Sequence record: NC_041869.1
DNA: 64,000 nt
Strand: one strand, 5' to 3'
Source of the DNA: Escherichia phage APECc02
Shown here one piece after another: positions 39,970 to 46,388 of the stretch (positions within the stretch are counted from its first letter, which is position 1; every line of letters begins with the position of its first letter). The translations under genes and the position numbers were made by a program. The notes under the pieces are model-generated. The model was not told the DNA's origin and did not search any database. It saw nothing but the letters and a program-made list of their open reading frames with translations.

Positions 39970-40320
39970 TCAGTAGATGTTTTGTTTAATCTCTATTCCA
40001 AACTTTTTAAACGAGTCAGCTGCAAGCATGAATTTACGAGCCGCTGATGGGTTAGAAGTATGCACGAAAATCTTCACGTTGTCAACTACAGGAGGCTTAC
40101 CAAATACAAATTTTTCCTCTAGGATGCAGAAGCAATCGTATCCTTCAAAAATTTCTCCCAAGTCGCTGTCAAAATGCCACTCAGAAACTCGTCTATAAAG
40201 CTTTCTCTTGTCATTGATGAAATCCATAAACTCAGAAGAGTTCTTCAGCCAAAGAGCATCTTGGAGCCCGTAATTTGACGGATCTCTCAAGTCATCCAGC
40301 CACACAATCAACTTCTTCAT
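39970..40320 (-). CDS. hypothetical protein adjacent to Sir2-like gene
   Basis: ORF co-oriented; no motif recognised. Confidence 0.45.
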   Translation of the reverse strand: MKKLIVWLDDLRDPSNYGLQDALWLKNSSEFMDFINDKRKLYRRVSEWHFDSDLGEIFEGYDCFCILEEKFVFGKPPVVDNVKIFVHTSNPSAARKFMLAADSFKKFGIEIKQNIY

Positions 40321-41252
40321 TGCATATAGTCCTCGTTGTGGAAATAGTAGTCAAGTATCTCGCGGCGTTCCTGCTCAAGGAGACAGTTCCACACATCTTC
40401 TGTGTAATTGCTACGAATGAAGTTTACCATGCCGTAAAACTCTTCGTCAACACGTTTAAAGATATCCTCATCCCAAATCTTCCAAGCTTTACCTCTCATT
40501 ACGGCCTTCCGTGCCAAATAGTACGGAGACTTGATCTTCAGCTGCAGATCATAAGGGTAGTAAGGCTTACGAATCATATACCCTTCACCTCTTGTTTCTG
40601 CAGCTAATTCTTTTGCATAACTGAACGGAATTTCACGCACAGTGTGAGGACGTTTTGCACCAAGGTATTTGGCAATCCCATCTAAAGCTGCCTCTGGTAG
40701 CATTATTCCAGAATCATTATATCTGCAACCTATCAAATATGCGCCATGATCTTCCTGAACAATATGCGGATCTGAAGGGTGACAAATTTCAAACATGAAT
40801 GTCATGTTTTCATTGCCCATAACCTTCTTGATAAGATCTAAATTACCACATTGCTCCTGGATGGTTTCCTTTGCGAGGTTACAATATGGAGAATCAAGAG
40901 ATCCGGTTGTTGAGAACAATAGTTCACCTTTATGAGAGGATACCACACCAAGGAATCCGTTCTTTTTCTCTACCGCCGTCACAAGCTTATTGTCAGGCAG
41001 GTTGGTGGAGTTTTCTCCCAAGTTAAACACTTTTGTGAAGGGCCATGCCACAACATTTCCTTCATTACCGACAACAATGCCTCGGCACTCCAGTAAACGA
41101 GGGGACAAATGCCATAAATTGTTGTAAAATACTTTTCTGGCATATTTATAGATCTTTAACCCAAGATCCGGGTAATATCTACTGGTTACAAGACCTTTGT
41201 CAACTAGGTCGTCTGCATTAAAATACTTCATCATACGTTCCTCATTTGTCAT
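40317..41252 (-). CDS. RNA ligase 1 (T4 RnlA-like)
   Basis: LLECRGIVV, FTKVFNLGEN, KKNG adenylation motif, LLFSTTGSLDS match T4 Rnl1 blocks. Confidence 0.8.
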   Translation of the reverse strand: MTNEERMMKYFNADDLVDKGLVTSRYYPDLGLKIYKYARKVFYNNLWHLSPRLLECRGIVVGNEGNVVAWPFTKVFNLGENSTNLPDNKLVTAVEKKNGFLGVVSSHKGELLFSTTGSLDSPYCNLAKETIQEQCGNLDLIKKVMGNENMTFMFEICHPSDPHIVQEDHGAYLIGCRYNDSGIMLPEAALDGIAKYLGAKRPHTVREIPFSYAKELAAETRGEGYMIRKPYYPYDLQLKIKSPYYLARKAVMRGKAWKIWDEDIFKRVDEEFYGMVNFIRSNYTEDVWNCLLEQERREILDYYFHNEDYMQ

Positions 41253-41295
41253 TTTGTCAGTCTATCCTGCCACACAAATAACCTAGTGTCAACAC

Positions 41296-41324
41296 TTGAA
41301 ATTAACAAAACAGTTAGGTATACT
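41296..41324 (+). promoter_or_regulatory. sigma70-type promoter (TTGAAA-N17-TATACT)
   Basis: hexamers read directly; upstream of kinase gene. Confidence 0.5.
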
Positions 41325-41352
41325 ATCGTTGAAATTAAAACGGAGTATTACT

Positions 41353-41763
41353 ATGTCTAAAATGCTATATATCGTGCGTGGTCTACCAGGGTCTGGCAAA
41401 TCAACACTGGCAAATGCGCTATCTTTAGAAGGTCTGTATCCACATTTTGAGAACGACATGTTCTGGTACGACGATGATGGAAATTACAACTGGGATGCAA
41501 GTAAAGTAACACTTGCAGCAAAATGGTGCAAAGATAACGTAGAAGATATGATGCGTATGGGATACGACCGTATCGTGGTAAGTAATACGTTTACAAAAGA
41601 AAAATATGTGCAAGAATATATTGACATGGCGATCAGTCATGGGTATAGTTATACCGTGATCGTGGTTGAAAACCGCCATGGTAATAAAAGCATTCATGAT
41701 GTTCCAGACAGGGTTGTGGATCGTATGGAACGCCAGCTTAAAAATTGCATTAAACTTAAATGA
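41353..41763 (+). CDS. polynucleotide 5'-kinase (T4 Pnk kinase-domain-like)
   Basis: Walker A GLPGSGKST; start taken at MSKMLYIV with GGAG RBS. Confidence 0.65.
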   Translation: MSKMLYIVRGLPGSGKSTLANALSLEGLYPHFENDMFWYDDDGNYNWDASKVTLAAKWCKDNVEDMMRMGYDRIVVSNTFTKEKYVQEYIDMAISHGYSYTVIVVENRHGNKSIHDVPDRVVDRMERQLKNCIKLK

Positions 41764-41770
41764 GGAATGT

Positions 41771-42325
41771 ATGAAATACTTTGTAACAAGCGACACACAC
41801 TTTCTCCACCAGCGGGTCATGGAGTTCGACTCATGTCAAAAACACAGATCTCAGTATGATCACAATCTTGACAGTATGAATGCGGGAATCATCACCGAGT
41901 GGAACTCTGTTGTGTCACCTGCAGACACTGTGTTCCACCTGGGAGATATTGCGTGCACTAATGATAAGAATATCAACAAATTGCTCCCAGATGTTCTAAA
42001 TATGTTGAACGGACATATTATTCTTGTTCGTGGTAACCATGACACAAGGACGACTGTCAGAATTATGAAAGAGTTCGGTCATGAGGTTGTAGATTATTAC
42101 GAGCTTCGCCACAACAAGAATTTGATCTGTATGAGCCATTACCAGTTTGCAAAGTGGAACAGAAAGCCTCACGGATCAGTCCAACTGTTCGGTCATGCTC
42201 ACGGAACCACACAGCAGTTGTTTGGCAGGCAGTTTGATGTCGGTTGGGATGTGTGGGGGAGACTCTTACCATTAGAAGAGGCATACCGTATTGCAATGAG
42301 TCTTGCTATTGACAGCGGGGAGTAA
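41771..42325 (+). CDS. calcineurin-like metallophosphoesterase
   Basis: DTHF, GD, GNHD motifs; start at MKYFV with GAGGA RBS. Confidence 0.65.
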   Translation: MKYFVTSDTHFLHQRVMEFDSCQKHRSQYDHNLDSMNAGIITEWNSVVSPADTVFHLGDIACTNDKNINKLLPDVLNMLNGHIILVRGNHDTRTTVRIMKEFGHEVVDYYELRHNKNLICMSHYQFAKWNRKPHGSVQLFGHAHGTTQQLFGRQFDVGWDVWGRLLPLEEAYRIAMSLAIDSGE

Positions 42326-44824: not shown

Positions 44825-45163
44825 ATGGCGGATACAACTAAAAAGCGTCGCCGTAGAGGCAGACCTCTGAAAGAGGAGTCCAACGCCATTCAGCTAGAGA
44901 AGAACATCCTTGATATGAAGGAATCTTTTATAGCGATGGTTCCAGAAGCTCACAAAGTTTTAAGAGAGCTGATGTTGGACCCGAAAACCAAACAAAATAT
45001 TCGTCAAAGCATTGCAGAGTATGTTCTTGATAAGGCAGACCGAATGCAGGAAGAATATGATGAGATGTTTGGTGAAGAGGAAGAGGTGGTAGTAGAAGAG
45101 GCTGAAAAACCAGCACCTTTTATGCCATTTACCACAGAAATACAGCCTGTTGGCAATAGTTAA
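44825..45163 (+). CDS. hypothetical DNA-binding protein (KKRRRRGRP basic N-terminus, acidic C-terminus)
   Basis: ATG with GGAGGAAA RBS just downstream of promoter. Confidence 0.5.
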   Translation: MADTTKKRRRRGRPLKEESNAIQLEKNILDMKESFIAMVPEAHKVLRELMLDPKTKQNIRQSIAEYVLDKADRMQEEYDEMFGEEEEVVVEEAEKPAPFMPFTTEIQPVGNS

Positions 45164-45172
45164 AATATTTTC

Positions 45173-45201
45173 TTGACAAACTTTGCTTAACAGTGTAATA
45201 T
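45173..45201 (+). promoter_or_regulatory. sigma70-type promoter upstream of tRNA cluster (TTGACA-N17-TAATAT)
   Basis: hexamers read directly. Confidence 0.55.
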
Positions 45202-45259
45202 TGTAAACATGGTCTCCCACCTTTTCTGGCGGCTAAGGTGTAAAAGAAAGCCACCCAGT

Positions 45260-45334
45260 GCCCTGTTAGCTTAGTGGATAAAGCAGCGGCCTTCTAAGCC
45301 GTTGACACTGGTTCGAGTCCAGTACGGGGTGCCA
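45260..45334 (+). tRNA. tRNA-Arg (anticodon TCT), CCA encoded
   Basis: cloverleaf folded by hand: 7-bp acceptor, anticodon loop CTTCTAA, GTTCGAGTC T-loop. Confidence 0.75.
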
Positions 45335-45338
45335 AATT

Positions 45339-45425
45339 GGGGAGTTATCCCGTAGAGGTAGCGGTGTAGACTGTAAATCTATTGTCATTGCGACTCGGGT
45401 GGTTCGACTCCACCACTCCCCACCA
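45339..45425 (+). tRNA. tRNA-Tyr (anticodon GTA), long variable arm
   Basis: anticodon arm AGACTGTAAATCT identical to bacterial tRNA-Tyr; acceptor pairs; CCA encoded. Confidence 0.8.
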
Positions 45426-45539
45426 AATTTACATTTTTAAATGCATAAATCATACAGATAATGGCATTGATATTTATCGTCGTTTATACTAGTCACTAAC
45501 TGCTCGAAAATCAGTGTCATTATCAGTATTGTTTATAAA

Positions 45540-45630
45540 TGAGGGTAGGGAGCAATGGTGCTCAAGCGGTCTTGAAAACCGTCCCGTTGAGGATGACTCG
45601 ATGATGGTTCGATTCCATTACCCTCAGCCA
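45540..45630 (+). tRNA. tRNA-Ser (anticodon TGA), long variable arm
   Basis: anticodon loop CTTGAAA, long variable arm, T-loop TTCGATT; 5' boundary uncertain by 1 nt. Confidence 0.65.
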
Positions 45631-45728
45631 TATTGTTGACCTTGTAATTAAGCGAAAGCCGGAAGCAGAACCGGATTATCAAATGTTACAGTCGTCATCG
45701 CCGACTAGCAACATGGTCAACATACTGA

Positions 45729-45825
45729 GCTAGGTAAGCCCTTTGGCAAGGGCGAGGATTTTTAATCCTGAAAATAGACGAGGTAGTCGTTGAATACATA
45801 GGTGGTTCGATTCCATCACCTAGCA
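45729..45825 (+). ncRNA. atypical tRNA-like element (acceptor and T-arm intact; possible TTT anticodon; ~31-nt variable region)
   Basis: GCTAGGT/ACCTAGC acceptor pairing and GGTTCGATTCC T-arm, but non-canonical middle. Confidence 0.3.
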
Positions 45826-45832
45826 CCTTTTT

Positions 45833-45908
45833 GCTGATGTAGCACAATTGGTAGTGCAATTGATTTGTAATCAATAGGTTGCAGGTTCGAGTCCTGCTAT
45901 CAGCACCA
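45833..45908 (+). tRNA. tRNA-Thr (anticodon TGT), CCA encoded
   Basis: acceptor GCTGATG, D-arm GCAC..GTGC, anticodon loop TTTGTAA. Confidence 0.75.
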
Positions 45909-45909
45909 T

Positions 45910-45984
45910 GGCCCTGTAGCTGGAAGGTTCAAGCAAGCGACTCATAATCGCCAGACGGTGGTTCAATTCCACCCAGGGCCACCA
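45910..45984 (+). tRNA. tRNA-Met or Ile2 (anticodon CAT), CCA encoded
   Basis: acceptor GGCCCTG/CAGGGCC, anticodon loop CTCATAA. Confidence 0.75.
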
Positions 45985-45995
45985 AATAATAAATA

Positions 45996-46072
45996 CTCCG
46001 CGTAGCTCAGCTTGGTAGAGCGCCTGATTTGGGATCAGGAGGTCGAGTGTTCGAATCACTCCGTGGAGACCA
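45996..46072 (+). tRNA. tRNA-Pro (anticodon TGG), CCA encoded
   Basis: canonical D-arm TAGCTCAGCTTGGTAGAGC, anticodon loop TTTGGGA. Confidence 0.75.
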
Positions 46073-46118
46073 CTTTCAGTTATACTTTAAACATATACAA
46101 ACAAAAGGAACCTTTAAA

Positions 46119-46388
46119 ATGTATACACTTAAAATTGTAGAGCGTGTAAATCCAACCCATACTGTAGATTTTCGTGACGATTTCAATCCTCTGGCTGTAA
46201 ATCTTCGAGAGTCATATCATGAACTCAGCTGCGATGCAGTGGTGGTCTTTTTTGAAGACAACTCTGAAGGGGCAGTAGCTTGTGTTGTTGATAGTGAGCA
46301 GAAGTTTTATATTTACAGAGATGTAGATGCATACTTGATGAATGAAAATGCAGTTACTGTTAGAATCATCCACCGAGTGCCTCGATAA
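46119..46388 (+). CDS. hypothetical protein
   Basis: start at MYTLKIV (track start overlaps tRNA-Pro); AAAGGA RBS. Confidence 0.5.
   Translation: MYTLKIVERVNPTHTVDFRDDFNPLAVNLRESYHELSCDAVVVFFEDNSEGAVACVVDSEQKFYIYRDVDAYLMNENAVTVRIIHRVPR

What the first reader, a model, noticed from the sequence alone, without database searches (positions are those of the whole stretch)
45173..46072. Promoter-driven tRNA cluster including one atypical tRNA-like element
Six canonical tRNAs (Arg-TCT, Tyr-GTA, Ser-TGA, Thr-TGT, Met/Ile-CAT, Pro-TGG), most with encoded CCA, follow a consensus promoter. At 45729-45825 a sequence has a perfect acceptor stem and T-arm but a non-canonical anticodon region and a ~31-nt variable region. 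It may be a pseudo-tRNA, a tRNA with an insertion, or a tRNA-like regulatory RNA. The cluster is adjacent to the RNA-repair genes.
Basis: partly seen in the sequence, partly recalled or inferred. Interest (0 to 1): 0.45.

Follow-up and report, generated by a model that had tools for sequence, protein, structure and literature searches.

The report
Conserved non-decoding tRNA-like phage RNA
Beside six ordinary tRNA genes, this rV5-like coliphage encodes a seventh tRNA-shaped RNA that belongs to a conserved, apparently undescribed phage RNA family with a degenerate "anticodon" loop and a fast-swapping extra arm, so it is most likely a tRNA mimic and not a working tRNA.

Summary
A promoter-like site (45173-45201) precedes six canonical tRNA genes (Arg-UCU, Tyr-GUA, Ser-UGA, Thr-UGU, CAU [probably Ile2], Pro-UGG), all with CCA encoded, and an atypical element at 45729-45825.

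The element is neither a pseudogene nor a normal tRNA. It belongs to a discrete RNA family found in Vequintavirinae, phi92-like coliphages, at least one N4-like podophage and uncultured phages. A motif scan found none in 185,579 bacterial and archaeal genomes. Members score 74-120 bits on a family covariance model; ordinary tRNAs score 25 or less.

Across 36 distinct members, 98.2% of stem positions pair and 15 of 22 pairs show compensatory changes. The tertiary elbow pair G19:C56 switches to U19:A56 without exception. The anticodon-like loop is 5-7 nt long and not conserved in sequence. Annotators have called it Lys, Stop, Sup, Ser, OTHER or nothing.

The 31-41-nt variable region is a hairpin cassette between conserved linkers. 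One identical core carries at least four different cassettes. Two rV5-like lineages have lost the element.

Best reading: a non-decoding tRNA mimic, possibly a decoy for tRNA-targeting host defences. That function is inferred, not shown. Closest analogues are the T4 and T5 tRNA-like stable RNAs, whose functions are also unknown.

The parts
45173..45201 (+). sigma-70-like promoter candidate (TTGACA, 17 nt, TAATAT) ahead of the tRNA operon
   Evidence: 10 of 12 matches, but the scan overall is not enriched over shuffles. The leader region is 96% invariant among 10 Vequintavirus cluster variants.
45260..45334 (+). tRNA-Arg(UCU), CCA encoded
   Evidence: ARAGORN; Rfam tRNA 67.8 bits.
45339..45425 (+). 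tRNA-Tyr(GUA), type II, CCA encoded
   Evidence: ARAGORN; Rfam tRNA 29.9 bits against a cut-off of 29.
45540..45630 (+). tRNA-Ser(UGA), type II, U1:A72, G73, CCA encoded
   Evidence: ARAGORN. Matched only through the tRNA-Sec model at 40.2 bits, below its cut-off. Listed for rV5 in PMC3606486.
45729..45825 (+). the atypical tRNA-like RNA (G1 to discriminator A73; CC follows at 45826-45827)
   Evidence: Rfam tRNA 35.5 bits. Family model R1 98.2 bits, against 25 or less for ordinary tRNAs. Covariation.
45729..45735 (+). acceptor stem, 5' strand (pairs with 45818-45824)
   Evidence: All 7 pairs are 100% paired across 36 members; 5 of 7 show double-sided changes.
45738..45753 (+). D-arm GCCC-TTTGGCAA-GGGC, preceded by invariant A8 and with invariant U14
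   Evidence: 3 of 4 stem pairs covary. The second G of the loop covaries with T-loop C56 (GC in 25 members, UA in 11, none broken).
45755..45769 (+). anticodon-like stem-loop AGGAT-TTTTA-ATCCT (5-bp stem, 5-nt loop)
   Evidence: The closing pair is U-A here, C-G in 16 members and mismatched in 12. The loop is 5-7 nt and has 10 different sequences.
45770..45776 (+). conserved 5' linker GAAAATA
   Evidence: Nearly invariant G-AAAA across the family.
45777..45791 (+). variable-arm hairpin cassette GACGA-GGTAG-TCGTT ('class A')
   Evidence: A53:T59 becomes G:C in Av-05. Hairpin z = -2.2 against shuffles. Other members carry unrelated cassettes.
45792..45800 (+). conserved 3' linker GAATACATA
   Evidence: AATACATA is invariant in 34 of 36 members. 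It was used as a search motif, so this figure is partly circular, but members found independently by the 5' signature also keep ATAC.
45801..45817 (+). T-arm GGTGG-TTCGATT-CCATC
   Evidence: 100% paired; 3 of 5 pairs have double-sided changes.
45833..45908 (+). tRNA-Thr(UGU), CCA encoded
   Evidence: ARAGORN; Rfam tRNA 76.2 bits.
45910..45984 (+). tRNA with CAU anticodon, probably Ile2-type (AUA after lysidine modification) and not elongator Met
   Evidence: ARAGORN; Rfam tRNA 60 bits. It shares the acceptor GGCCCTG with T4 tRNA-Ile(CAU). BASEL records annotate it as Ile/ATA.
45996..46072 (+). tRNA-Pro(UGG), CCA encoded
   Evidence: ARAGORN; Rfam tRNA 66.4 bits.
39970..42325 (.). RNA-repair module: cREC-domain protein (-), Rnl1-type RNA ligase (-), P-loop kinase (+), metallophosphoesterase (+). 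This is context only; no link to the element has been shown.
   Evidence: Pfam PF20274, PF09511, PF13671 and PF12850/PF00149.

Best explanation
The element at 45729-45825 is a gene for a roughly 100-nt RNA that folds into a tRNA-like L-shape: a 7-bp acceptor stem, a D-arm, a T-arm and an intact D-loop/T-loop elbow. It does not decode. It is co-transcribed with the tRNAs. Its 5' end would be cut by RNase P, and its 3' end would be set when the next tRNA is cut, followed by trimming and CCA completion. These processing steps are inferred from its tRNA-like ends and its tight packing in the operon. Its anticodon-like arm ends in a short, non-conserved loop. Its variable region is a hairpin cassette held between two conserved A-rich linkers. 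I propose that it works as a tRNA mimic that competes for one or more tRNA-binding factors. The most likely target is a host anti-phage nuclease that attacks tRNAs, so the RNA would protect or supplement the translational tRNA pool. The rapidly exchanged V-arm cassette and loop would then be the surfaces under arms-race selection. Shown: the fold, the family, purifying selection on the core, fast cassette turnover, restriction to phages, and dispensability in the laboratory. Inferred: expression, processing, the binding partner and the decoy role.
For: Structure and selection:
- All 14 distinct sequences first collected fold without constraints into the same five-arm cloverleaf; the window copy has z = -3.3.
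- In 36 distinct members, 98.2% of cells pair, against 27-45% when partners are slid. 15 of 22 pairs have double-sided changes. The covariation score is 0.518 against 0.189 in shuffles, with 0 of 500 shuffles reaching it (20-member set).
- The tertiary elbow pair is G:C in 25 members and U:A in 11, never broken.
- The G.U wobbles fit only the + strand.

Discrete family:
- Members score 74-120 bits on model R1. All other tRNAs, including type II tRNAs, score 25 bits or less.
- Members occur in Vequinta-, Avuna-, Seuna-, Mydo- and Henunavirus, the phi92-like phage PD06, the N4-like phage UTK0002 and uncultured phages.
- A motif scan found none in 185,579 prokaryote genomes.

Not a pseudogene: within Vequintavirus, 5.2% of the element's columns vary, against 20-25% in adjacent spacers and 1.3-16% in the tRNAs.

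Not a decoder:
- The loop is 5, 6 or 7 nt long and has 10 different sequences. The closing pair covaries (C-G in 16, U-A in 8).
- The 7-nt form has A where the universal U33 would be.
- Carriers of the UCC-like loop also encode a normal tRNA-Gly(UCC).

Conflict signature:
- One identical 74-nt core carries at least four V cassettes. Pairwise distance is 0.19 in the core, 0.36 in the AC-loop and 0.50 in the V-region.
- Even so, 21 of 29 V-regions fold better than shuffled sequence (z < -1.5).
- The class C loop GAAYUAACAGUA is kept over four different stems.

Biological plausibility:
- E. coli Septu and Retron-Eco7 PtuAB cut the variable arm of tRNA-Tyr.
- T5 tRNA-Tyr escapes through a distinctive variable loop.
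- Excess phage tRNA partly protects host tRNA (PMC13096335; PMC11555353).
- The phage carries a full tRNA-repair module, which implies exposure to tRNA-cleaving defences.
Against: - There is no expression, processing, binding or phenotype data for any member.
- A stoichiometric decoy must be abundant to work, and its abundance is unknown.
- The window copy does not encode the full CCA.
- The strictly conserved linkers are not explained by a generic decoy role and may point to a specific protein partner instead.
- V18 and O157 typing phage 4 grow without the element. This fits an accessory anti-defence role but equally fits a minor role.
- The cassette and loop do not obviously copy any host tRNA arm.
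- Covariation counts come from related sequences, and the 36-member alignment was fitted to the model. The independent MAFFT alignment of 20 members gives the same picture.
Confidence: 0.35

Rival explanations
1. It is a working, unusual tRNA. In rV5-like phages the U31-A39 pair opens to give a 7-nt loop UUUUUAA, so the RNA acts as tRNA-Lys(UUU). This could replace host tRNA-Lys destroyed by PrrC- or PARIS-type nucleases. In other phages the same gene would act as an opal or ochre suppressor, or as tRNA-Gly.
For: The Rfam tRNA model aligns it with a UUU anticodon and a 4-bp stem at 35.5 bits. BASEL and other records annotate it tRNA-Lys. A73 fits Lys identity (from general knowledge of aaRS identity rules). 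The phage has no other tRNA-Lys. Phage tRNA-Lys is a known counter to PARIS and PrrC (PMC11464382; PMC11555353). In 12 of 36 members the closing pair is mismatched, giving CAUCAAA, which some annotators call sup(tca).
Against: The closing pair covaries (U-A, C-G), so it forms. Orthologues have loops of 5 or 6 nt, which cannot present an anticodon. The 'anticodon' would change Lys to Ile to Gly to stop among close relatives while the rest of the molecule stays constant. The Lys reading also needs a G.G mismatch at 27:43 and has no nucleotide 26. Other departures are A8/U14 in place of U8/A14, a 31-nt variable region with 7- and 9-nt single-stranded linkers, A at position 33 in the 7-nt form, and a discriminator that switches between A and U.
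Confidence: 0.1
2. It is a tRNA-scaffolded effector RNA. The tRNA body only provides processing and stability. The active part is the V-arm cassette with its conserved linkers, which binds a specific phage or host protein, or (class C loop) base-pairs with a target RNA.
For: The linkers GAAAAUA and AAUACAUA are more conserved than most stems. The class C 12-nt loop is conserved over four different stems. Cassettes are exchanged as modules on identical cores. Engineered tRNAs tolerate aptamer hairpins in the V-arm (abstract of PMC7590224, listed).
Against: The class A cassette in this window has only a 5-nt loop, too short for antisense action. A scaffold would not need a conserved anticodon-like stem, G26/G44, or a covarying elbow. 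No partner gene was found: the neighbour phrog_9325 in N4-like contigs has no homolog in the window.
Confidence: 0.2
3. It is a cis-acting processing, punctuation or terminator element. The tRNA-like fold only recruits RNase P and 3' processing enzymes to mature neighbouring tRNAs, or (in rV5-like phages) the acceptor/T hairpin plus the U-run attenuates transcription.
For: It sits 2-7 nt from neighbouring tRNAs in nearly all genomes. In the window it is followed by CCTTTTT, and the scan flags a terminator-like site at 45799-45822.
Against: RNase P needs only the acceptor/T minihelix (from general knowledge of RNase P substrates). That would not explain the covarying D-stem, anticodon-like stem and elbow pair, the conserved linkers, or the CCA encoded in most members (16 of the first 20). 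The U-run is confined to Vequintavirus.
Confidence: 0.1
4. It is a non-ribosomal aminoacyl carrier or an aaRS-directed RNA. An anticodon-independent synthetase charges it (for example SerRS through the long arm, or one reading G1:C72/C2:G71). The charged RNA then serves a transferase or titrates the synthetase.
For: CCA is encoded in most members (16 of the first 20). G1:C72 and C2:G71 are nearly invariant (33 and 35 of 36). The long arm and degenerate anticodon fit anticodon-independent recognition (inference from published identity rules).
Against: The discriminator switches between U and A. The Ser determinants (G73, G2:C71, C11:G24) are absent. The long, flexible linkers would misorient the arm. 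No aminoacyl-tRNA-dependent transferase was seen near the element.
Confidence: 0.08
5. It is a decaying tRNA pseudogene with no function of its own.
For: The anticodon loop is non-canonical. Many annotation pipelines skip it. Two lineages lost it.
Against: 98% pairing with 15 covarying pairs, a covarying tertiary pair, 5% variable columns against 20-25% in spacers, and retention across several phage subfamilies and families.
Confidence: 0.03

Closest known systems
Phage T4 species 1 / species 2 RNAs (rnaC, rnaD) and phage T5 'tRNA-like stable RNAs' (RNA1, RNA2, RNA3, RNAI, RNAIII, RNAIV)
   Same: They are small RNAs encoded inside phage tRNA gene clusters and flush with tRNAs. T4 rnaC and T5 RNA1/RNA2 have a terminal acceptor-like stem, a canonical T-arm and an expanded middle in place of a normal anticodon/variable region (folds). 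Sizes overlap: T5 RNAIII is 106 nt and RNAI 107 nt, against 97-107 nt here. Their GenBank records list their functions as unknown.
   Different: No homology is detectable. Family model R1 gives 6.6 bits to T4 rnaC and nothing above ordinary-tRNA level to the T5 RNAs. This family keeps a complete D-arm, an anticodon-like stem and a separate V-arm hairpin between conserved linkers, which is a different architecture.
Type II (long variable arm) tRNAs, tRNA-Sec and allo-tRNAs (Mukai et al., PMC5389517)
   Same: A long extra arm between the anticodon stem and T stem. A possible 6-bp D-stem with a 4-nt loop (GCCCUU-UGGC-AAGGGC), as in tRNA-Sec. One subgroup has a loop CAUCAAA resembling the tRNA-Sec loop CUUCAAA (the latter from memory of E. 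coli selC). Irregular tRNAs do occur in phage tRNA clusters.
   Different: The acceptor/T configuration is 7/5, not 8/5, 8/4 or 9/3. The anticodon loop is not a conserved 7-mer. The variable region is 31-41 nt with long single-stranded linkers, whereas type II tRNAs have about 10-24 nt with 1-2-nt linkers. Type II tRNAs score only about 21 bits on the family model.
Phage tRNAs that counter tRNA-targeting defences (T5 tRNA-Lys vs PARIS; T5/T6 tRNA-Tyr vs Retron-Eco7/Septu; mycobacteriophage tRNAs)
   Same: They are encoded in phage tRNA clusters. Sequence changes in the anticodon loop or variable loop give escape from host nucleases, and excess phage tRNA can shield host tRNA (PMC11464382, PMC11555353, PMC13096335, PMC10264068).
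   Different: Those are functional decoding tRNAs that replace the cleaved species. This RNA lacks a usable anticodon loop in most members, so it could act only as a mimic or competitor. No defence system has been shown to interact with it.
Bacterial Y RNA-like YrlA and other tRNA mimics (tmRNA tRNA-like domain, viral 3' tRNA-like structures)
   Same: All use a tRNA-like elbow and T-arm without decoding. YrlA is associated with RNA-repair operons (from general knowledge).
   Different: In YrlA the tRNA-like module is inserted in a Ro-binding helix, and the ends do not form the acceptor stem. The Rfam YrlA, tmRNA and other models do not match the element.

Membership tests
Canonical decoding (elongator) tRNA | 7-bp acceptor stem, 5-bp T-stem and a T-loop of the UUCRAnY type | tested here: met
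   GCTAGGT/ACCTAGC and GGTGG-TTCGATT-CCATC. Both helices are 100% paired across the family.
Canonical decoding (elongator) tRNA | Passes a general tRNA covariance model | tested here: met
   Rfam RF00005 gives 35.5 bits against a cut-off of 29, with one anticodon-stem pair missing and a large insertion in the variable region.
Canonical decoding (elongator) tRNA | 7-nt anticodon loop with U33 and a purine at 37, and an anticodon conserved among orthologues | tested here: not met
   The window loop is 5 nt (TTTTA), closed by a U-A pair that covaries with C-G. The family has loops of 5, 6 or 7 nt and 10 different sequences. The 7-nt form has A33.
Canonical decoding (elongator) tRNA | U8 and A14 (conserved tertiary pair) | tested here: not met
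   A8 and U14 are invariant in the 20-member alignment and in all 36 rows.
Canonical decoding (elongator) tRNA | G18G19 in the D-loop contacting psi55/C56 of the T-loop | tested here: met
   GG is present. The G19:C56 equivalent covaries to U:A in 11 of 36 members, with no exception.
Canonical decoding (elongator) tRNA | Variable region of 4-5 nt (type I) or a 10-24-nt arm with short linkers (type II) | tested here: not met
   31 nt in the window and up to 41 nt in relatives, with single-stranded linkers of 7 and 9 nt.
Canonical decoding (elongator) tRNA | Aminoacylation and use on the ribosome | not testable with these tools
   This needs acid-gel or periodate assays and tRNA-seq of polysomes.
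tRNA-Sec / allo-tRNA | 13-bp (8/5) or 12-bp 8/4 or 9/3 acceptor/T branch | tested here: not met
   A 7/5 branch in all members.
tRNA-Sec / allo-tRNA | 6-bp D-stem with a 4-nt D-loop | tested here: inconclusive
   U14-A21 and U15-A20 could extend the stem, and both the MFE and RNAalifold predict this. Both pairs are invariant, so there is no covariation test.
tRNA-Sec / allo-tRNA | UCA anticodon (Sec) in a 7-nt loop | tested here: not met
   The window has TTTTA. Only the AUCAA subgroup (13 of 36) contains UCA, and in part of it the loop is closed to 5 nt by a U-A pair.
T4/T5 tRNA-cluster 'stable RNAs' (rnaC, rnaD, T5 RNA1/2/3/I/III/IV) | Encoded within a phage tRNA cluster, with tRNA-like ends and T-arm and no anticodon function | tested here: met
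   Position in the operon. The same design in T4 rnaC and T5 RNA1/RNA2.
T4/T5 tRNA-cluster 'stable RNAs' (rnaC, rnaD, T5 RNA1/2/3/I/III/IV) | Sequence and structure homology to those RNAs | tested here: not met
   Model R1, with filters off, gives T4 rnaC 6.6 bits (E = 1.3). No T5 stable RNA scores above ordinary tRNAs.
T4/T5 tRNA-cluster 'stable RNAs' (rnaC, rnaD, T5 RNA1/2/3/I/III/IV) | Accumulates as a stable RNA in infected cells | not testable with these tools
   Needs Northern blotting or RNA-seq of infected cells.
Y RNA-like (YrlA) / tmRNA | Match to the family covariance model or an ARAGORN tmRNA call | tested here: not met
   No YrlA or tmRNA match at the element. The only YrlA hit (25 bits, cut-off 69) lies over the CAT and Pro tRNAs.

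The most novel reading that the evidence does not exclude
The family is an RNA-based, modular anti-defence device. A constant tRNA-shaped chassis is processed and stabilised like a tRNA. It displays an exchangeable V-arm cassette and a short loop, and these determine which host tRNA-directed immune nuclease or toxin is bound and neutralised. Phages would swap cassettes by recombination at the conserved linkers to keep pace with host defences. This would be the first dedicated non-coding tRNA decoy in phage counter-defence. It could also explain the decades-old T4 and T5 'stable RNAs'.
Probability: 0.2. Interest if true: 0.8.

Novelty: new variant of a known kind. Interest (0 to 1): 0.6.

Why it matters
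Phage tRNA clusters are now recognised as counter-defence loci against tRNA-cleaving immunity (PARIS, PrrC, Retron-Eco7/Septu, Schlafen-type nucleases). The non-tRNA 'stable RNAs' embedded in such clusters have had no assigned function since they were found in T4 and T5.

This element defines a well-delimited, strongly covarying family in therapeutically relevant phages (rV5-, PVP-SE1-, phi92- and Klebsiella Mydovirus-like). It is inconsistently annotated as Lys, Stop, Sup, Ser, OTHER, a hypothetical protein, or nothing.

Three things follow:
- The annotation can be corrected. In particular, it should not be read as a suppressor tRNA or as tRNA-Lys.
- There is now a covariance model for finding it.
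- The constant core with hypervariable cassettes gives a clear, testable handle on what tRNA mimics do during infection.

If the decoy idea is wrong, the family is still a clean natural example of a tRNA scaffold carrying an exchangeable hairpin.

Tried and rejected
1. ARAGORN's fold with a 4-base anticodon 'atcc' (stem ATTTT/AAAAT). The stem does not exist in relatives such as PVP-SE1 or the Klebsiella copies, so I rejected it.
2. Homology to T4 rnaC/rnaD and to the T5 stable RNAs. The family model finds nothing. I keep them as analogues only.
3. Rfam families other than tRNA (YrlA, tmRNA, tRNA-Sec). None fits the element.
4. A bacterial origin or host copies. The motif scan of one genome for each of 185,579 species gave 0 hits. 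The pattern is strict, so very divergent copies could be missed.
5. A partner protein. The 202-aa gene directly downstream in L078 and L065, and nearby in UTK0002, is phrog_9325 (unknown function). It is a common N4-like gene with no tblastn hit in the window, so I dropped it. The auxiliary loci were not included in that BLAST because of a file-glob error, so only the window was tested.
6. An intramolecular kissing contact between the AC-loop and V-loop. UCCA:UGGA fits in class B cassettes, with one covarying case (GCCA:UGGC in 4MG). It is absent from classes A and C, so it is not a family feature.
7. A functional link to the RNA-repair module. The ligase is found in 727 phage records, far beyond the element's range, and lies about 11.6 kb away in PVP-SE1.
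8. Literature. Searches on Vequintavirinae, rV5, Hena1, tRNA-like, pseudo-tRNA, allo-tRNA and tRNA mimic or decoy found no description of this element. The rV5 genome paper lists only six tRNAs. Subscription-only papers were not searchable.
Full report
1. What is in the window

The window is an rV5-like coliphage. The stretch 45100-46150 is 100% identical to Shigella phage CM1 and 98-99% identical to many Vequintavirus genomes. ARAGORN finds seven genes on the + strand between 45260 and 46072. The Rfam tRNA model passes its curated threshold for Arg, Tyr, Thr, the CAU tRNA, Pro and the atypical element (35.5 bits against a cut-off of 29). tRNA-Ser(UGA) is picked up only through the related tRNA-Sec model. 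All six canonical genes encode CCA.

A TTGACA-17-TAATAT site sits at 45173-45201, just after the stop codon of the upstream ORF. It is a good match, but the scan as a whole is not enriched over shuffled sequence. The founding rV5 paper lists exactly these six tRNAs and no seventh gene (PMC3606486). The CAU tRNA shares its acceptor stem with T4's tRNA-Ile(CAU) and is probably an Ile2-type tRNA.

2. The atypical element itself

From G45729 the sequence reads:
- GCTAGGT (acceptor 5' strand), AA
- GCCC-TTTGGCAA-GGGC (D-arm), G
- AGGAT-TTTTA-ATCCT (stem-loop)
- GAAAATA (5' linker)
- GACGA-GGTAG-TCGTT (hairpin)
- GAATACATA (3' linker)
- GGTGG-TTCGATT-CCATC (T-arm)
- ACCTAGC (acceptor 3' strand), A, CC

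The unconstrained minimum-energy fold is this five-arm cloverleaf (-34.2 kcal/mol, z = -3.3). GenBank annotators disagree about it. They call it tRNA-Lys(AAA), tRNA-Stop(tta), tRNA-???(atcc), tRNA-OTHER or a hypothetical protein, or they leave it unannotated. Relatives are called tRNA-sup(tca).

3. It belongs to a discrete, conserved phage RNA family

BLAST with the element and with diverged copies found relatives in these groups:
- Avunavirus (Av-05)
- Seunavirus (PVP-SE1, SSE121, GAP31, 4MG and others)
- Mydovirus (Klebsiella, Proteus)
- Henunavirus (Erwinia)
- Raoultella phage Ro1
- phi92/phAPEC8-like coliphages (vB_vPM_PD06)
- the N4-like Salmonella podophage UTK0002

Motif scans added uncultured phages from IMG/VR and metagenomes. 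The same motif gave no hit in one genome from each of 185,579 bacterial and archaeal species.

A covariance model built from 20 distinct members (R1) scores members at 74-120 bits. Every ordinary tRNA in the same loci, including the long-arm Tyr, Ser and Leu tRNAs, scores 25 bits or less. The family is thus cleanly separated from tRNAs.

4. The fold is under selection

In a MAFFT alignment of 20 distinct members, 99.3% of stem cells form standard pairs, against 30-44% when partners are slid by 1-3 columns. 11 of 22 pairs show changes on both sides.

With 36 distinct members, 98.2% pair and 15 of 22 pairs have double-sided changes. The covariation score is 0.518 against 0.189 in shuffles, and none of 500 shuffles reaches it. 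This second alignment was fitted to the model, which favours the structure, but the independent MAFFT result agrees.

The most telling pair is tertiary. The second G of the D-loop (G19 equivalent) pairs with T-loop C56 in 25 members. It becomes U with A56 in 11 members, with no exception. The three-dimensional elbow of the L-shape is therefore maintained. G.U wobbles at several pairs fit only the + strand.

Within the closely related Vequintavirus genomes, 5.2% of the element's columns vary. The flanking spacers vary at 20-25% and the six tRNAs at 1.3-16%. This rules out a decaying pseudogene.

5. It is not built to decode

The pair closing the anticodon-like stem is U-A in rV5-like and some other members (8), C-G in 16, and a mismatch (mostly C.A) in 12. 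The loop is accordingly 5, 6 or 7 nt long. It has ten different sequences:
- 5 nt or fewer: UUUUA, UUAUA, AUCAA, CAUCA
- 6 nt: CAUCCA, CUUCCA, CCUCCA, CAGCCA, CCUCAA
- a tenth form in metagenomic member L039: GUGAUA on a 4-bp stem, or the 4-nt UGAU if G.A closes it

The 7-nt version (CAUCAAA) has A at the position of the universal U33. A reading as Lys in rV5-like phages would have to become Ile(AUA) in Av-05, Gly or nothing in PVP-SE1, and a stop suppressor in Erwinia phages, while the rest of the molecule stays almost unchanged. Phages with the UCC-like loop also carry a normal tRNA-Gly(UCC).

Other departures from tRNA rules are invariant A8/U14 in place of U8/A14, and a 31-41-nt variable region with single-stranded linkers of 7 and 9 nt. 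I cannot exclude weak decoding in some lineage, and I give that rival about 10%.

6. A constant core with exchangeable modules

The variable region always contains a hairpin. Of 29 distinct versions, 21 fold better than shuffled sequence at z < -1.5, with a mean z of -1.96. Its sequence, however, falls into several unrelated classes:
- a 15-nt hairpin in rV5-like and Av-05 phages, with one compensatory change between them
- CCUCC/GGAGG-type hairpins of 22-24 nt
- a class with the conserved 12-nt loop GAAYUAACAGUA over four different stems (GCC/GGC, GUC/GAC, UUCC/GGAA, AGCG/CGCU)
- further classes in metagenomic members

One identical 74-nt core is shared by eight members that carry at least four different cassettes. 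Mean pairwise distance is 0.19 for the core, 0.36 for the loop and 0.50 for the variable region. Among 56 pairs whose cores differ by 3% or less, the variable regions differ by up to 59%.

The linkers flanking the cassette (G-AAAA-UA and AAUACAUA) are among the most conserved parts of the molecule. The 3' linker was used as a search motif, so part of that conservation is circular. Members found with a 5'-half signature keep AUAC. A conserved chassis, conserved junctions and rapidly replaced cassettes point to a surface under diversifying selection or modular exchange, not to neutral drift.

7. Dispensability and context

Two Vequintavirus lineages have lost the element through different recombinations with tRNA-Tyr:
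- V18 fuses Tyr to the 3' strand of the variable hairpin.
- O157 typing phage 4 fuses a Tyr-like body to the element's T-arm and acceptor 3' end.

The element is therefore accessory for growth on laboratory hosts.

It always lies within tRNA clusters, 2-7 nt from a neighbouring tRNA. That neighbour is Thr, Ile, Ser or Arg in Vequintavirinae and Leu(UAA) in phi92-like and several uncultured phages.

The RNA-repair module in the window is real (cREC domain, Rnl1-type ligase, P-loop kinase, metallophosphoesterase). It ends 2.85 kb upstream of the promoter. The ligase occurs in 727 phage records, far beyond the element's range, and lies about 11.6 kb from the element in PVP-SE1. I therefore treat the module as a sign that these phages meet tRNA-cleaving defences, not as a partner of the element.

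8. How it most likely works

Shown: a tRNA-shaped, phage-restricted, selectively maintained RNA gene inside a tRNA operon, with no conserved anticodon loop and with hypervariable modules.

Inferred: it is transcribed with the tRNAs, cut by RNase P at G1, trimmed and completed to CCA. CCA is encoded in most members (16 of the first 20).

My best mechanistic guess is that it acts as a tRNA mimic that competes for tRNA-binding factors, most plausibly host anti-phage tRNA nucleases. My confidence in this full statement, mechanism included, is about 0.35. Published context makes it plausible:
- Septu and Retron-Eco7 PtuAB cut the variable arm of E. coli tRNA-Tyr.
- T5 tRNA-Tyr resists cleavage through a distinctive variable loop.
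- Overexpressed phage tRNA partly protects host tRNA (PMC13096335; PMC11555353).
- Phage tRNA-Lys counters PARIS and PrrC (PMC11464382; PMC11555353).

The main alternative is a tRNA-scaffolded effector whose active part is the cassette plus linkers (about 0.2). Lower-ranked rivals are a genuine odd tRNA (0.1), a cis processing or terminator element (0.1), a non-ribosomal aminoacyl carrier (0.08) and a pseudogene (0.03). No data on expression, binding or phenotype exist for any member.

9. Comparison with what is known

The nearest kind is the set of small stable RNAs in the tRNA clusters of T4 (rnaC, rnaD) and T5 (RNA1, RNA2, RNA3, RNAI, RNAIII, RNAIV). Their GenBank records call several of them 'tRNA-like stable RNA with unknown functions'. 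T4 rnaC and T5 RNA1/RNA2 fold with a terminal stem and a canonical T-arm around an expanded middle. The family model detects no homology to any of them.

The element also resembles type II tRNAs, tRNA-Sec and allo-tRNAs in having a long arm and possibly a 6-bp D-stem. It has a 7/5 branch and no conserved anticodon, so it fails their defining features (PMC5389517). Rfam 15 has no family for it other than the generic tRNA model. I found no paper describing it, within the limits of the searchable open-access library.

10. Verdict

The finding is real and more interesting than 'one odd tRNA'. It is a new, well-supported family of non-decoding tRNA-like RNAs in a known general category whose function has never been worked out.

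I rate it as a new variant of a known kind, with interest 0.6. The most novel reading still open is a modular RNA decoy against tRNA-directed immunity. I give that about 20% probability, and it would be of high interest if true.

Noticed in passing
window 45426-45539: The 114-nt AT-rich spacer between tRNA-Tyr and tRNA-Ser folds into a long, nearly perfect hairpin (-25.8 kcal/mol, z = -4.0, 0 of 200 shuffles as stable). It could be another small RNA or a processing or attenuation signal. The region is variable (20% of columns) within Vequintavirus.
   Followed up: partly
window 45631-45728: The 98-nt spacer between tRNA-Ser and the element has a terminal inverted repeat (TGTTGACC...GGTCAACA) enclosing two hairpins, a cloverleaf-like outline (z = -2.6). 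It is not called by ARAGORN or Rfam and is variable among relatives.
   Followed up: partly
L028 about 2905-2995 (Salmonella podophage UTK0002, OQ359892): Directly upstream of this phage's copy of the element lies an unannotated tRNA-Sec-like gene (GGAAGATT...AATCTTCCGCCA). Its acceptor is like E. coli selC (from memory), but its anticodon loop reads TTTGAAC, i.e. a UGA (Ser) anticodon. It may be an 8/x allo-tRNA-Ser of the kind reported in phages.
   Followed up: no
L003 about 1795-1885 (Av-05, NC_025830): Another unannotated tRNA-like sequence, with acceptor GGCGGTG/CACCGTC, a canonical T-arm (GAGAGGTTCGATTCCTC) and a 6-bp stem closing a CTTCTAA loop. ARAGORN does not call it.
   Followed up: no
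L005 1450-1540 (V18) and L080 837-925 (O157 typing phage 4): Two independent natural chimeras between tRNA-Tyr and the element. They show recombination between tRNA-cluster members at shared T-arm and variable-arm sequences. Both phages also lack tRNA-Ser.
   Followed up: yes
window 45910-45984: The 'tRNA-Met(CAT)' shares its acceptor stem (GGCCCTG) with T4 tRNA-Ile(CAU). From memory, its anticodon stem also resembles that of E. coli ileX. It is therefore probably an AUA-reading Ile2 tRNA that needs lysidine modification, not a Met tRNA as stated in the rV5 paper.
   Followed up: partly
window 39970-40320 (- strand): The small ORF next to the RNA ligase carries a 'cyclic-phosphate processing receiver' (cREC_REC, PF20274) domain. 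This adds a fourth component to the ligase, kinase and phosphoesterase repair module.
   Followed up: partly
L004 (GE_vB_MG, MG969411, UNVERIFIED record) 2497-2605: Its copy differs from PVP-SE1 by single-C deletions in two CC runs (loop CATCA vs CATCCA; 3' end TCAA vs TCCA). This looks like homopolymer sequencing error, not biology.
   Followed up: no
L042 7862-7934: ARAGORN calls a 'tRNA-Pyl (cta)', i.e. an amber-suppressor-type tRNA cut by the end of the locus, in an uncultured 152-kb phage contig that also carries the element.
   Followed up: no
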